From NCBI RefSeq assembly GCF_006345805.1, contig NW_021824889.1, forward strand, positions 1-17,292: a DNA stretch of 17,292 nt, written 5' to 3'. The position numbers are program-made. The stretch comes from Octopus sinensis (Eukaryota). This document shows positions 9,094-12,969 of this stretch, in pieces (the first letter of the stretch is position 1; each line of letters opens with the position of its first letter).

Positions 9094-12000
9094 GAAGCTT
9101 TGTCAGTGAACAGGTCGCGGTCGGAAAGCGACGAAATATTTTAACAAATTCAATTTAAATGTTGAAGTGAATCTATCGGTTTTTGTGTGTTTCTTAATCG
9201 CTTATAAACACCTTCCACGCTGCAATTATTTTCGTTCCAGCCACACGATCTCAGATCAGGTCACTTGCTATGCAAGTACATCTCCGTAACGTATTGCTAC
9301 ACAGAAATAAGTAAAAAAAAAAAAAACCAAGAAAAAACATTTTCTAGTAAAAAAATTGTTTTATTGAATTAGAAAAAAATTCATTTTAATTAACAATAAA
9401 ACAAATCAGTAAATCCGGGAATCTTGTTAGTGTTTGTTGTTGTATTGGTTGCAGTACTGGTACTATCAGTGGTATTGTCTTGGTGGTAGTTGTTCCTAGG
9501 GCTTCTCATGTTGCTGTAACTAGTAGTAGTAGTAATTAGTTAGTTAATTAGTTAGTTAGTTAGTTAGTTCATTTTTGGCTCAAAAAGCAAAAAGCAAGGC
9601 CATGTAGGGGGGACATGGAGTTATGTACAGGGTGGTGTTCATGTAAAGAGTTCAGGCCATTTCTGGTCAAGGGAGACTTTGAACCGAGCGGTCGTCAGCA
9701 TCTTCACCATCTCGTCCGGAAGCTTGTTCCACGGATCCGCAACCCGGACGGAGAAAGACCCTCTCCTTCGACTGAGTTGAGATCGTCGCAGATAGAGCTT
9801 TTCGGAGTGACCCCGCAACCTACGCTCTGGATCAGGAGTGAAGAACAGCTCTTTCGAGAGGTTACACTTTCCGCTTATGATGTTGTGAGCAAGAATGAGA
9901 TCACCACGGCGTCGTCTAGGGGGTATGGAGAAAATCAGGTGTAGTGTTGGTGAATCTCAGGAAGCATGGAAGTTTTGAAGGATGCAGTGCTCCGACAACT
10001 AACAACTGATGCCGGCAGTTTGTTCCATGCTTGTGTGTGTATGGAGGGGAGAAGATCAGGTGTAGTGTTGGCGAATCTCAGGAAGCATGGACGTTTTGAA
10101 GGATGCAGTGCTCCGACAACTAACAACTGATACCGGCAGTTTGTTCCATGCTTCAGCGTGTGTATGGAGGGGAGAAGATCAGGTGTAGTGTTGGCGAATC
10201 TCAGGAAGCATGGAAGTTTTGAAGGATGCAGTGCTCCGACAACTAACAACTGATGCCGGCAGTTTGTTCCATGCTTCAGCGTGTGTATGGAGGGGAGAAG
10301 ATCAGGTGTAGTGTTGGCGAATCTCAGGAAGCATGGAAGTTTTGAAGGATGCAGTGCTCCGACAACTAACAACTGATGCCGGCAGTTTGTTCCATGCTTC
10401 AGCGTGTGTATGGAGGGGAGAAAATCATGTGTAGTGTTGGCTAATCTCAGGAAGCATGGAAGTTTTGAAGGATGCAGTGCTCCGACAACTAACAACTGAT
10501 GCCGGCAGTTTGTTCCATGCTTCAGCGTGTGTATGGAAGGGACAAAATCAGGTGTAGTGTTGGCGAATCTCAGGAAGCATGGAAGTTTTGAAGGATGCAG
10601 TGCTCCGATAACTAACACTGATGCCGGCAGTTTGTTCCATGCTTCAGCAACTCTCAGCGTGAAAAAATGTTTCCTGAAGTCATGGGAGCTGTGCTGTTTT
10701 CTGACTTTCTAAATATGACCACGGGTGTTAGATGGGTGGAGTTTGAAAAGGTGCTCAGAGTTATGTTTGTAAGATGGTTAATAATTTTATGGGTGTCTGC
10801 CAAGTCAGCTGCCAGACGTCGGAGTTTCAATGTATCCATGCCCAGGGAAGTAAGGCGTTCAGAATATGGCAAATTCCTGATGGGGGTTATTCTTTTGGTT
10901 GCACATCGCTGAACGGCTTCCAGACGATTGATATCCTGGGCAAGAAAGGGGTTCCAGACCGGTGATGCAATTCCAGGTGAGATCTTACCATAGCTATATA
11001 AAGCCGCAGATAGATAGTCGGAGAGCGGCTCACAAAGGACTTGGTGAGTGATGCCAAGACACCCTCAGCCTTCTTGGCAATTTTAGCAATGTGTTTTGTC
11101 CAACACGAATCTCTGTCGACAATAATACCCAGGTCACGTTCACAAGAAGACTTTTTGAGATTAGTGTTGTGGAGGGAGTAATTGGACGCTGGGTAGTAAA
11201 AAATATATGTAAAAGAAGGAAGGAAAATCAATGTTTTTTCGTCCTATCTTCCGTTGTCACTTTCCGTGATGAATATTTTAATTATTATTGTTGAAGCTGT
11301 TGTCATCGTCTTAATTCTTGTTCTTGCATTTGTTGTTGTTGTTGTTATAGCAATTGCTGCTGATAAGCCCAGTACTTATTCTATCGGTCTCTTTTGCCGA
11401 ACCGCTAAGTGACGGGGCATAAACACACCAGCATCGACCCCAGGACTTATTCTTTGTAAGCCCAGTACTTATTCTATCGGTCTCTTTTGCCGAACCGCTA
11501 AGTGACGGGGACGTAAACACACCAGCATCGACCCTGGGACTTATTCTTTGTAAGCCCAGTACTTATTCTATCGGTCTATTTTGCCGAACCGCTAAGTGAC
11601 GGGGACGTAAACACACCAGCATCGACCCCGGGACTTATTCTTTGTAAGCCCAGTACTTATTCTATCGGTCTCTTTTGCCGAACCGCTAAGTGACGGGGAC
11701 GTAAACACACCAGCATCGACCCTGGGACTTATTCTTTGTTAGCCCAGTACTTATTCTATCGGTCTCTTTTGCCATACCGCTAAGTGACGGGGACGTAAAC
11801 ACACCAGCATCGATCCTGGGACTTATTCTTTGTAAGCCCAGTACTTATTCTATCGGTCTCTTTTGCCGAACCGCTAGGTGACGGGGACGTAAACACACCA
11901 GCATCGACCCTGGGACTTATTCTTTGTAAGCCCAGTACTTATTCTATCGGTCTCTTTTGCCGCGTATGTACTAGCAAAAATGCGTGTGTGCACAAACTAG

Positions 12001-12969
12001 AAAAATTGCGAGGATGGTGAAAAGGATAATGTGGGACCGCGCAGGTTTCAGATTTTTTCAAGATATCCTGCCCACATATACTTGATCTATCTTCATCAGC
12101 CAAACATATACCACGACAACCTTTCAGATGTTACCACATTAATGCCATTACACTCGACTGAAACGCCGAAACGCTAACAGCACGAGAACGGTGAAGAAGT
12201 TTCAATAAATTAGTAATGGAATACTAGAGTATTGCTTTCCAGTAAAGAATAGCCCGTGAGGGGAAAATATACAAAGAAGTAAATATATGGCCCAACGAAG
12301 TACCGATATTTACTGGAAATAGCGAACGTAATAATACGACGCTAATGTATAGCTTCACCGCGTATGTACTAGCAAAAATGCGTGTGTGCAACAAACTAGA
12401 AAAATTGTCTTACCTCCAGGAGAACATTTTGCTAGTACATTCGCGGTGAAGCTATACATTAGCGTCGTATTATTACGTTCGCTATTTCTAGTAAATATCG
12501 GTACTTCGTTGTGCCATATATTTACTTCTTGTATATTCCCCTCACGGGCTATTCTTTACTGGAAAGCAATACTCTAGTATTGCATTACTAATTTATTGAA
12601 ACTTCTTCACCGTTCTCGTGATGTTAGCGTTTCGGCGTTTCAGTCGAGTGTAATGGCATTAATGTGGTAACATCTGAAAGGTTGTCGTGGTATATGTTTG
12701 GCTGATGAAGATAGATCAAGTATATGTGGGCAGGCATATCTTGAAAATCTGAAACCGGCGCCGGTCCCATATTATCCTTTTCTAGGTATTTCATCTTTCA
12801 GATGTTCTCCCTGGAGGTAGACAATTTTTTCAAGTTTGTTGCACACACGCATTTTTGCTAGTACATACGCGGTGAAGCTATACATGAGCGTCGTATTATT
12901 ACGTTCGCTATTTCCAGTAAATATCGGTACTTCATTGTGCCATATATTTACTTCTCTCTCTCTCTCTCT

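What the first reader, a model, noticed from the sequence alone, without database searches (positions are those of the whole stretch)
11960..12955. Retrozyme-like ~426-nt monomer with canonical type I hammerheads on both strands
Seen: two copies of a full HHR (12694-12772 plus, 12029-12107 minus) with exact CTGATGA, GAAA and GTC, a bulged stem I (G-C in one copy, G-U in the other) and a GC-rich stem III. Each lies in a non-coding unit that runs past one full period (426 nt) as a circular permutation. Established: animal non-LTR retrozymes are tandem monomers of a few hundred nt with one type I HHR that yield circular RNAs and are thought to borrow Penelope-like reverse transcriptase. Inference: a more-than-unit-length permuted insertion fits reverse transcription around a circular RNA template, so this may be a cephalopod retrozyme family.
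Basis: partly seen in the sequence, partly recalled or inferred. Interest (0 to 1): 0.85.

Follow-up and report, generated by a model that had tools for sequence, protein, structure and literature searches.

The report
Head-to-head hammerhead repeat, Penelope-style insertion
This stretch is a dead-end daughter copy of a short non-coding mobile repeat carrying a hammerhead-ribozyme-like motif, inserted as two facing partial copies in the way Penelope-like retrotransposons insert; it is a probable octopus member of a known class of elements rather than a new kind of thing.

Summary
The motif is real at the stated coordinates. Both copies have an intact hammerhead core, and helices I-III can be drawn with helix I open (type I). 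A descriptor finds only these 2 sites in the window, against 28 chance sites in 10,036 shuffles.

It is not "canonical". Rfam gives no Hammerhead hit even at E<=10. Helix II is 42-43 nt, pair 10.1-11.1 is A-U, and the active fold is not the minimum-energy fold.

The two copies form one compound insertion. A 467-nt minus arm (11960-12426) and a 529-nt plus arm (12427-12955) abut by their 5' ends. Each is longer than one ~426-nt unit and has no ORF, and the right junction lies on a microsatellite.

Partial tandem plus an adjacent inverted 5'-truncated copy is the published signature of Penelope-like element (PLE) integration. The unit is therefore best read as a non-autonomous, retrozyme-type PLE dependant, probably in an octopus genome.

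Each arm holds only one ribozyme, so this locus cannot release unit-length or circular RNA. A circular RNA template is possible but not favoured, because the repeated parts of the minus arm differ by a 39->10-nt replacement.

Family size, cleavage and circles could not be tested. I rate it a new member of a known kind.

The parts
11960..12426 (-). Minus arm: 467-nt copy of the unit, about 1.1 units long. Its 5' end lies at 12426 (centre) and its 3' end at 11960-11962 (left junction, where 3 nt, CCG, are shared with the flank).
   Evidence: (I1-I3, D6), 8 and 32: 96.1% identity to the plus unit over 361 alignment columns.
12029..12107 (-). Hammerhead-like motif of the minus arm. Core intact; helix II is 43 nt; helix III is reduced to A-U plus 2 G-C pairs. 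Predicted cut between 12035 and 12034.
   Evidence: helix II z = -1.26.
12427..12955 (+). Plus arm: 529-nt copy, 1.24 units long. Its 5' end lies at 12427 (centre) and its 3' end at 12955, on the (CT)n run.
   Evidence: (D5, I1-I3).
12694..12772 (+). Hammerhead-like motif of the plus arm: helix I 12694-12701/12767-12772, CUGAUGA 12702-12708, helix II 12709-12750, GAAA 12751-12754, palindromic helix III 12755-12764, U16.1-C17 12765-12766. Predicted cut after C12766.
   Evidence: (helix II z = -2.69; 2 of 200 shuffles fold as well).
12853..12955 (+). Second occurrence of the first 103 nt of the plus arm (12427-12529), 426 nt further on. It shows that the unit follows itself with no ORF in between.
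   Evidence: D5, 96%; 4 mismatches.
11960..12007 (-). Second occurrence, within the minus arm, of the segment at 12358-12406, at a spacing of 398 nt. It is followed at 12008-12017 by a 10-nt stretch that stands where the plus arm has 39 nt.
   Evidence: (D6, 33 nt exact).
12358..12446 (.). Central junction. The two 5' ends abut at 12426/12427. 20-nt inverted arms (12358-12377 and 12427-12446) around a 49-nt spacer give a hairpin, which draws weak microRNA-model matches.
   Evidence: I3, I17; mir-7563 and mir-249 far below their gathering scores.
12956..13044 (.). Compound microsatellite (CT)n(TA)n(TG)n directly at the 3' junction of the plus arm. It is the likely target and is the tail side of the neighbouring SINE-like copy.
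11364..11962 (+). Left flank: a 94-nt tandem array (6.4 copies, 96% matches) made of an internal piece of the SINE-like repeat. It is broken off at the left junction.
   Evidence: (D3).
13045..13230 (-). Right flank: a SINE-like repeat in the orientation opposite to the left array. Other copies lie at 2007-2160 and 2303-2452.
   Evidence: (I4-I10).

Best explanation
Region 11960-12955 is a single compound insertion of a short (~426-nt), non-coding repeat that carries a hammerhead motif. The repeat is a non-autonomous dependant of Penelope-like elements (PLEs), which is the class called animal non-LTR retrozymes.

Two cDNA copies of the element RNA were made from the two DNA ends of one target break and met head to head. 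The minus arm was primed from the left flank. The plus arm was primed from the (CT)n/(TA)n microsatellite on the right. The two 5' ends abut at 12426/12427.

The template was longer than one unit and read straight through the ribozyme cleavage site. It was therefore either an uncleaved multimeric transcript or a religated circle, and not a ribozyme-processed linear monomer.

In master tandem arrays the type I hammerhead would cut multimeric transcripts into unit-length RNA, probably acting as a dimer through its palindromic helix III. At this locus each arm has only one ribozyme, so the locus is a dead-end daughter copy that has been decaying neutrally.

Shown here: the anatomy, the motif, the absence of coding capacity, the equal age of the arms and the junction details.
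Inferred: reverse transcription, the PLE machinery, self-cleavage and the existence of a family.
For: 1. Motif. All core positions are intact in both arms and the three helices can be drawn. The descriptor finds 2 sites in the window against 28 in 10,036 shuffles.

2. Features not in the descriptor. These are the ones Cervera & de la Pena 2014 list for metazoan and PLE hammerheads (passages). Helix III is a perfect 10-nt palindrome in the plus arm (0 of 21 chance sites had one). Helix II is long and carries a bulge, and helix I is short.

3. Opposite-strand pairs. The same paper reports pairs of hammerheads about 100-700 bp apart on opposite strands and attributes them to truncated PLEs. Here the two cores are 603 bp apart on opposite strands.

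4. Architecture. [quoted passage not shown] This is the structure Craig et al. 2021 describe for PLE insertions, together with a bias for microsatellite targets (passages). The plus arm ends on (CT)n(TA)n.

5. Mechanism in print. Frangieh et al. 2024 (abstract and passages) found that a purified PLE protein cuts and extends both DNA strands. It starts reverse transcription inside the RNA and mainly uses unprocessed RNA.

6. One event. The three copies of the 103-nt segment differ pairwise by 3-4 mismatches, each change found in only one of the three copies.

7. Junctions. The last 20 nt of the minus arm (11979->11960) are the same unit positions as the first 20 nt of the plus arm (12427-12446). 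Twin priming on one RNA predicts this kind of small overlap. By my own estimate, chance gives about 40 in 426.

8. Non-autonomous. The unit follows itself directly in both arms. No open stretch exceeds 69 aa on a unit dimer. In 20 window ORFs scanned against Pfam there is no GIY-YIG domain; the only endonuclease matches are of the Exo_endo_phos type.

9. RNA structure. The sense unit folded as a circle gives -116.7 kcal/mol against -93.3 +/- 5.5 for shuffles (z = -4.3). The antisense gives z = -2.35. Retrozyme circles are described as highly self-paired.

10. Possible partner. Octopus vulgaris is reported to hold 30 recently active Penelope families (Table 1 passage).
Against: - No Rfam Hammerhead model matches, even at E<=10.
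- The active three-helix fold (-11.3 kcal/mol) is not the minimum-energy fold (-18.6) in local context. The 79-nt motif is no more stable than shuffles (z about 0 in both arms).
- Pair 10.1-11.1 is A-U, where Cervera & de la Pena 2014 call G-C highly conserved.
- The unit occurs nowhere else in the window, and no eukaryotic genome collection was available. Repetitiveness, tandem master arrays and mobility are therefore unshown.
- The two arms do not share a 3' end; they differ by 83 unit positions.
- No target-site duplication is evident, and the left junction lies in a SINE-derived array rather than a microsatellite.
- By my count on the two sequences printed, the 79-nt motif holds about 5 differences between the arms. 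That is no fewer than elsewhere in the arms, so the pair shows no sign of selection on the ribozyme.
- There is no PLE coding sequence in the window.
Confidence: 0.6

Rival explanations
1. These are heavily 5'-truncated copies of an autonomous Penelope-like element. On this reading the ~426-nt unit is simply its pseudo-LTR and there is no separate non-coding family.
For: Hammerheads sit in PLE pLTRs, and opposite-strand pairs are attributed to truncated PLEs. The tandem/inverted architecture is the same. Li et al. 2026 find retrozymes and pLTRs to be close relatives (abstract and section 14).
Against: In both arms the unit is followed directly by the same unit, not by a 5' UTR or ORF. This is what a short element in tandem gives, and not a pLTR-ORF-pLTR element. 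No RT/GIY-YIG sequence adjoins it.
Confidence: 0.12
2. This is a DNA-level rearrangement of a hammerhead-bearing satellite. A short tandem array of about 2.3 units suffered an inversion or fold-back duplication, with no reverse transcription involved.
For: Hammerhead satellites exist, and the junction overlap of 20 nt would also fit an inversion with staggered breaks. The flanking SINE-like sequences are themselves in inverted orientation (I4-I10).
Against: One inversion break would have to fall exactly at the edge of the array. The flanks are not symmetric: the left flank stops inside the SINE-like unit, while the right flank runs through the SINE tail and a microsatellite. The structure matches a documented retrotransposition footprint without any such coincidence.
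Confidence: 0.12
3. The hammerhead resemblance is a chance match inside an unrelated inverted repeat, and no ribozyme is encoded.
For: There is no Rfam hit, and the fold is not the minimum-energy one. 10.1-11.1 is A-U. Extrapolating the chance rate to a gigabase genome (my own estimate) gives hundreds of random sites. The two copies are duplicates and so count only once.
Against: The motif has a perfect core, a palindromic helix III and a long stable helix II, a combination seen in 0 of 21 chance sites. It also lies in an element whose insertion architecture is that of the one retroelement class known to carry type I hammerheads.
Confidence: 0.08
4. This is an assembly artefact: a false palindrome from a chimeric long read.
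For: Inverted duplications are a known kind of assembly error (recalled, not checked in any call).
Against: The arms differ by about 3-4% including indels. They start 49 nt apart in unit coordinates and end at different unit positions, and the flanks are not mirror images.
Confidence: 0.04

Closest known systems
Metazoan non-LTR retrozymes (Cervera & de la Pena 2020, PMC7229834; mussel Mytilus galloprovincialis repeats of ~350-390 bp)
   Same: A short non-coding unit with one type I hammerhead. The unit follows itself head to tail. The predicted RNA is highly self-paired. The host group (molluscs) is known to carry such elements together with PLEs (sections 14 and 17 read).
   Different: The unit is 426 nt, just above the ~170-400 nt range quoted. 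Only 1.1-1.24 units and one ribozyme are present per arm, so no monomer can be released here. Helix II is 42-43 nt and no Rfam model matches. No expression or circle data exist.
Hammerheads in pseudo-LTRs of Penelope-like elements, including opposite-strand pairs (Cervera & de la Pena 2014, PMC4209133)
   Same: Helix II is larger than usual and carries a bulge, helix I is short, and helix III is palindromic. Two motifs lie a few hundred bp apart on opposite strands (passages).
   Different: Helix III here is a real 4-bp stem with a tetraloop in the plus arm, not absent or 1-2 bp. Pair 10.1-11.1 is A-U, not G-C. [quoted passage not shown] No PLE ORF is attached.
PLE complex insertions: partial tandem plus adjacent inverted 5'-truncated copy (Craig et al. 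2021, PMC8557442; Frangieh et al. 2024, PMC11167929)
   Same: Head-to-head arms, each a partial tandem, with one junction on a microsatellite. The mechanism is plausibly both-strand cleavage and extension with internal initiation (passages).
   Different: The element is about 0.43 kb with no RT/GIY-YIG ORF. A 30-40-bp 'tail' could not be recognised from one locus.
Non-autonomous PLE derivatives such as MRC1 of Chlamydomonas (mentioned in Craig et al. 2021)
   Same: [quoted passage not shown]
   Different: Those are from the Chlamys clade in a green alga. The paper reports canonical hammerheads in only two Chlamys subclades, from Chara braunii and the spike mosses (passage).
L1 twin-priming inversions
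   Same: An inverted upstream segment is joined to a direct downstream segment of the same RNA, with a small overlap at the inversion point. Here the overlap is 20 nt.
   Different: That is a different retroelement class and endonuclease. Here the template is periodic, so the overlap could be coincidence.

Membership tests
Hammerhead ribozyme, type I | Conserved core: C3 U4 G5 A6 N7 G8 A9, G12 A13 A14, A15.1-U16.1, H17 | tested here: met
   Both arms carry CTGATGA, GAAA and a closing T-C.
Hammerhead ribozyme, type I | Three helices around the core, with helices II and III closed by loops and helix I open | tested here: met
   The descriptor scan finds both sites. All 24 pairs drawn for the plus copy are standard pairs.
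Hammerhead ribozyme, type I | Match to the Rfam Hammerhead_1 covariance model | tested here: not met
   No hammerhead family is listed at gathering score, nor at E<=10 on 1,101 nt or on 116 nt.
Hammerhead ribozyme, type I | G10.1-C11.1 pair, called highly conserved by Cervera & de la Pena 2014 | tested here: not met
   A12709-U12750 in the only register that satisfies the core.
Hammerhead ribozyme, type I | The active fold is thermodynamically favoured | tested here: not met
   -11.3 against an MFE of -18.6 kcal/mol. The 79-nt motif has z about 0. Helix II alone has z = -2.69 (plus) and -1.26 (minus).
Hammerhead ribozyme, type I | Site-specific self-cleavage | not testable with these tools
   Needs in vitro transcription of monomer and dimer constructs.
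Animal non-LTR retrozyme | Short non-coding unit (~170-400 nt) without LTR, PBS or PPT | tested here: met
   The unit is 426 nt, slightly over the quoted range. The longest open stretch on a unit dimer is 69 aa. PBS and PPT were not searched for.
Animal non-LTR retrozyme | Tandem copies, so that two or more hammerheads flank a monomer | tested here: not met
   At this locus there are 1.1 and 1.24 units per arm with one motif each. Other loci could not be examined.
Animal non-LTR retrozyme | Highly self-paired unit RNA | tested here: met
   Circular fold z = -4.3, with 64% of bases paired.
Animal non-LTR retrozyme | Multicopy family, expressed as linear and circular RNA | not testable with these tools
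   No eukaryotic genome or transcriptome collection was available. There is no further copy in the window.
Animal non-LTR retrozyme | Co-existence with autonomous PLEs in the genome | tested here: inconclusive
   No PLE in the window. The literature reports active Penelope families in Octopus vulgaris. The species of the window is not established.
Autonomous Penelope-like element | ORF with reverse transcriptase and GIY-YIG endonuclease | tested here: not met
   There is no such ORF in or beside the unit. The 20 ORFs scanned gave only Exo_endo_phos, RVT_1 and zf-RVT among element-related domains.
Autonomous Penelope-like element | Partial tandem (pLTR) with an adjacent inverted 5'-truncated copy; microsatellite targets | tested here: met
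   for the arms; for (CT)n(TA)n at the right junction. The left junction is not a microsatellite.
Autonomous Penelope-like element | 30-40-bp 'tail' at one end | tested here: inconclusive
   A tail cannot be defined without a family consensus. The 3' ends of the two arms differ by 83 unit positions.

The most novel reading that the evidence does not exclude
The locus may be a fossil of twin-primed, PLE-type reverse transcription of a hammerhead RNA longer than one unit, possibly a circle copied around. That would be direct genomic evidence, in a cephalopod, that retrozyme RNA is integrated by the Penelope machinery from both DNA ends. Its ribozyme would be a long-helix-II variant that Rfam models miss, so counts of hammerheads and retrozymes in cephalopod genomes (235 Rfam hits reported in the giant squid) would be underestimates.
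Probability: 0.3. Interest if true: 0.55.

Novelty: new member of a known kind. Interest (0 to 1): 0.35.

Why it matters
Retrozymes are proposed to spread through circular RNA intermediates using PLE enzymes. That link rests mostly on co-occurrence and sequence kinship.

A family whose daughter copies show head-to-head, more-than-unit-length, permuted arms would let the integration mechanism be read from genomic footprints. Useful readouts are the distribution of 3' start points, the overlaps at the inversion point, and identity versus heterogeneity of the repeated parts. The last of these can separate a circle from a multimer template.

The locus also shows that a hammerhead with an intact core can escape the Rfam models because of a 42-nt helix II. 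This bears on how such motifs are counted in cephalopod genomes.

On its own, this single decayed locus is ordinary repeat content.

Tried and rejected
- Rfam scans: whole window at gathering score, whole window at E<=1, 11900-13000 at E<=10 and 12675-12790 at E<=10. No hammerhead family appeared. The only matches in the region were far below threshold and are explained by the central inverted repeat (RyfD, mir-7563, mir-249) or by the core letters (two snoRNA models).
- Second GAAA at 12743-12746: considered by hand and rejected. It leaves two unpaired U before G12 and no helix III. The descriptor also finds only the 42-nt register.
- tRNA scan of the window: 0 genes, so no tRNA-like head was recognised in the SINE-like flanks.
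- BLAST of the unit against the rest of the window: no further copy.
- Pfam on 20 ORFs: no PLE-type domain. ORFs made of microsatellite translations were left out, so 20 of the 56 ORFs of >=80 aa listed were scanned.
- Taxon: one protein search gave only a 67%-identical named relative. The species is not established.
- Simple inverted duplication of the whole neighbourhood: rejected because the flanks are not mirror images.
- Literature: searches, and term look-ups inside four papers, found no description of a cephalopod retrozyme. They found only Rfam counts for the giant squid and PLE notes for cephalopods. The species lists in the supplements of PMC7229834, PMC4209133 and the 2026 preprint may include cephalopods, so 'not described' is provisional. 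PMC5785218 (Lunse et al. 2017) is not held.
The one genome-contig scan was not used.
- Complex prediction, structure prediction and the protein atlas were not relevant.
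Full report
WHAT IS THERE

The window (17,292 nt, no N) holds a 996-nt structure at 11960-12955 made of two facing copies of one sequence.

Repeat finding gives inverted arms of 210 nt (97%), 146 nt (94%) and 104 nt (97%). It also gives two direct repeats: 12427-12529 recurs at 12853-12955 (spacing 426, 96%), and 11960-11992 recurs at 12358-12390 (spacing 398, exact). Aligning the plus stretch with the reverse complement of the minus stretch, and BLAST of the unit against the window (96.1% over 361 columns), resolve this into two arms.

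- The minus arm reads 12426->11960 (467 nt).
- The plus arm reads 12427->12955 (529 nt).
- Their 5' ends abut with no spacer.
- Each arm is longer than one unit: 1.24 units of 426 nt in the plus arm and about 1.1 units in the minus arm.

At the unit-to-unit junction of the minus arm, 39 nt present in the plus arm are replaced by 10 unrelated or strongly diverged nt. The same stretch is present at the minus arm's own 5' partial unit. No other copy of the unit lies in the window.

THE RIBOZYME MOTIF

Exact CTGATGA in a hammerhead context occurs only at 12702 (+) and 12099 (-).

In the plus arm the layout is:
- helix I: 12694-12701 with 12767-12772 (A-U, U-A, G.U, a UU bulge, U-A, G-C, G-C)
- core: 12702-12708
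- helix II: 12709-12750 (4 bp, internal loop, 5 bp, one bulged U, 5 bp, 8-nt loop)
- GAAA: 12751-12754
- helix III: A-U plus CCG/CGG with a GCGC loop; the ten bases 12755-12764 are a perfect palindrome
- U16.1 and C17: 12765-12766

All 24 pairs are standard pairs.

A descriptor that I wrote required CUGANGA, helix II closing with >=4 bp, GAA, A15.1-U16.1 plus >=2 bp, H17 and >=3 bp of helix I. It finds exactly these two sites in the window. It finds 7 sites in 1,000 dinucleotide shuffles and 21 sites in 9,036 shuffles. None of the 21 had a palindromic helix III, and none combined a helix II of <=-11 kcal/mol with a 4-bp helix III.

For one window this is well beyond chance. For a gigabase genome the base descriptor alone would give hundreds of random sites (my extrapolation), so the motif needs its context to be believed.

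RESULTS AGAINST 'CANONICAL'

- Rfam lists no hammerhead family at gathering score, at E<=1 on the window, at E<=10 on 1.1 kb or at E<=10 on 116 nt.
- Pair 10.1-11.1 is A-U.
- The three-helix fold scores -11.3 kcal/mol against an MFE of -18.6 in local context.
- The 79-nt motif is no more stable than its shuffles in either arm (z = 0.08 and 0.10).
- Only helix II stands out: z = -2.69 in the plus arm, with 2 of 200 shuffles as good, and z = -1.26 in the minus arm.
- In the minus arm helix III has lost its palindrome and one pair, and helix II has lost its closing pair.
- By my count on the two sequences printed, the arms differ at about five places within the motif. That is no fewer than elsewhere, so this pair shows no selection on the ribozyme.

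The departures from the canonical metazoan type I motif go in the direction reported for PLE-associated hammerheads. These have a large helix II, sometimes bulged, a short helix I and a palindromic helix III, and are thought to act as dimers with low activity in vitro (Cervera & de la Pena 2014, passages).

WHAT THE ARCHITECTURE SAYS

Craig et al. 2021 (passages) describe PLE insertions as highly 5'-truncated and organised in partial tandems. [quoted passage not shown] Canonical PLEs carry their hammerheads in the pseudo-LTRs.

Cervera & de la Pena 2014 saw pairs of hammerheads about 100-700 bp apart on opposite strands and took them for truncated PLEs. Here the cores are 603 bp apart.

Frangieh et al. 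2024 (abstract and passages) showed that a purified PLE protein cuts and extends both strands of the target. It starts reverse transcription at internal sites of the RNA that are not homologous to the target. It mainly uses RNA not processed by the hammerhead.

The locus fits this picture point by point:
- Each arm has its 3' end at a flank and its 5' end at the centre.
- The right junction lies on (CT)n(TA)n(TG)n.
- Both junctions show 2-3 nt shared between element and flank (CCG on the left, CT on the right).
- No target-site duplication is evident.
- The three copies of the 103-nt segment are equidistant, with 3, 3 and 4 mismatches, each change found in only one of the three copies. The arms and their internal repeats are therefore of one age.

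Both arms read straight through the ribozyme cut site, and neither 3' junction lies at it. The template was therefore not a ribozyme-processed linear monomer.

NON-AUTONOMOUS ELEMENT OR pLTR?

In both arms the unit is followed by the unit itself, not by a UTR or ORF. The longest open stretch on a unit dimer is 69 aa.

Twenty non-repetitive ORFs of the window, out of the 56 of >=80 aa listed, gave only Exo_endo_phos-type endonuclease, RVT_1 and zf-RVT matches among element-related domains, and no GIY-YIG. The neighbours are LINE fragments.

So the element as copied here is a ~0.43-kb non-coding repeat. This fits the definition of animal non-LTR retrozymes (Cervera & de la Pena 2020; abstract and sections 14 and 17 read). 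[quoted passage not shown]

The sense unit folded as a circle is much more stable than shuffles (-116.7 against -93.3 +/- 5.5 kcal/mol, z = -4.3, 64% of bases paired). The antisense gives z = -2.35. This agrees with the 'highly self-paired' retrozyme RNAs.

Each arm here has one ribozyme only, so this locus cannot produce unit-length or circular RNA. It corresponds to the 'solo' daughter copies that the preprint describes.

CIRCLE OR MULTIMER?

The last 20 nt of the minus arm (11979->11960) occupy the same unit positions as the first 20 nt of the plus arm (12427-12446). Twin priming on a single RNA of at least about 2.3 units predicts this kind of small overlap. I recall it from L1 twin priming (Ostertag & Kazazian 2001, not read here). 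On a periodic template the coincidence has a chance of about 40 in 426 (my estimate), so it is suggestive only.

Against one circle copied around:
- The repeated parts of the minus arm differ by the 39->10-nt replacement.
- Both minus-arm units share a variant (…TTTTTCTAG…) that the plus arm lacks (…TTTTTTCAAG…).

Heterogeneous monomers of a read-through transcript, or two different templates, explain this more simply. A post-insertion rearrangement cannot be excluded. I put the circular-template version at about one in four.

HOST AND LITERATURE

The best named relative of the LINE reverse transcriptase at 7195-7752 is a 'jockey-like' protein named for Octop... (67% identity). The flanks are SINE-like repeats. 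From memory only, they look like the abundant octopus SINE.

Octopus vulgaris is reported to have 30 recently active Penelope families. The giant squid genome paper lists 235 Rfam Hammerhead_1 hits without further analysis.

I found no description of a cephalopod retrozyme in searches, or in term look-ups in four papers. Supplements are closed, so this is provisional.

VERDICT

The finding is a probable new (cephalopod) member of a known kind, seen as a single decayed daughter insertion. Family size, activity and circles remain untested because no eukaryotic sequence collection was available.

Noticed in passing
window 11364-11962 (+), 13045-13230 (-), 2007-2160 (+), 2303-2452 (+): A 94-nt tandem array (6.4 copies, 96% matches) is built from an internal piece of a SINE-like repeat. 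A fuller copy of that repeat lies inverted on the other side of the hammerhead structure, and two more diverged copies (78-81%) lie near 2.0-2.5 kb. ARAGORN finds no tRNA-like head.
   Followed up: partly
window 5531-8425 (+): A decayed LINE: an APE-type endonuclease (5531-6298) and a reverse transcriptase (6842-7752) split over several frames. The best named relative is 67% identical and named for Octop....
   Followed up: partly
window 2504-3391 (+); 5136-5366, 8572-8812, 8929-9289 (-): A 228-nt unit containing a (TA)n run forms a 3.9-copy tandem array. It recurs in the opposite orientation on both sides of the LINE at 5531-8425, as if the LINE had landed in, or is framed by, an array of this unit.
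   Followed up: partly
window 9927-10648: A 123-nt tandem repeat (5.9 copies, 97%) stays open in one minus-strand frame (257 aa, 9935-10708). It adjoins unassigned ORFs at 10654-11243 (-). The Pfam matches are only weak, repeat-driven noise.
   Followed up: partly
window 14344-16035 (-): A second retroelement fragment with RVT_1 and a zf-RVT domain. It runs into the (AGAT)n microsatellite at 15813-16126.
   Followed up: partly
window 1-1554 (-): A third LINE-like fragment with weak Exo_endo_phos matches, cut by the window edge.
   Followed up: partly
window 16432-16947 and 17069-17221: A 176-nt tandem repeat (3 copies, 85-94%) with a further 89% copy 120 nt downstream.
   Followed up: no
window 11960-12955: If transcribed across the centre, the two arms would pair into a near-perfect hairpin of about 460 bp. 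Such a hairpin is a potential substrate for small-RNA production or A-to-I editing. This is speculation and was not examined. The centre already draws weak microRNA-model matches in Rfam.
   Followed up: no
window 13420-13922: A long (GATA)n/(GACA)n microsatellite of about 127 units lies just beyond the SINE-like right flank.
   Followed up: no
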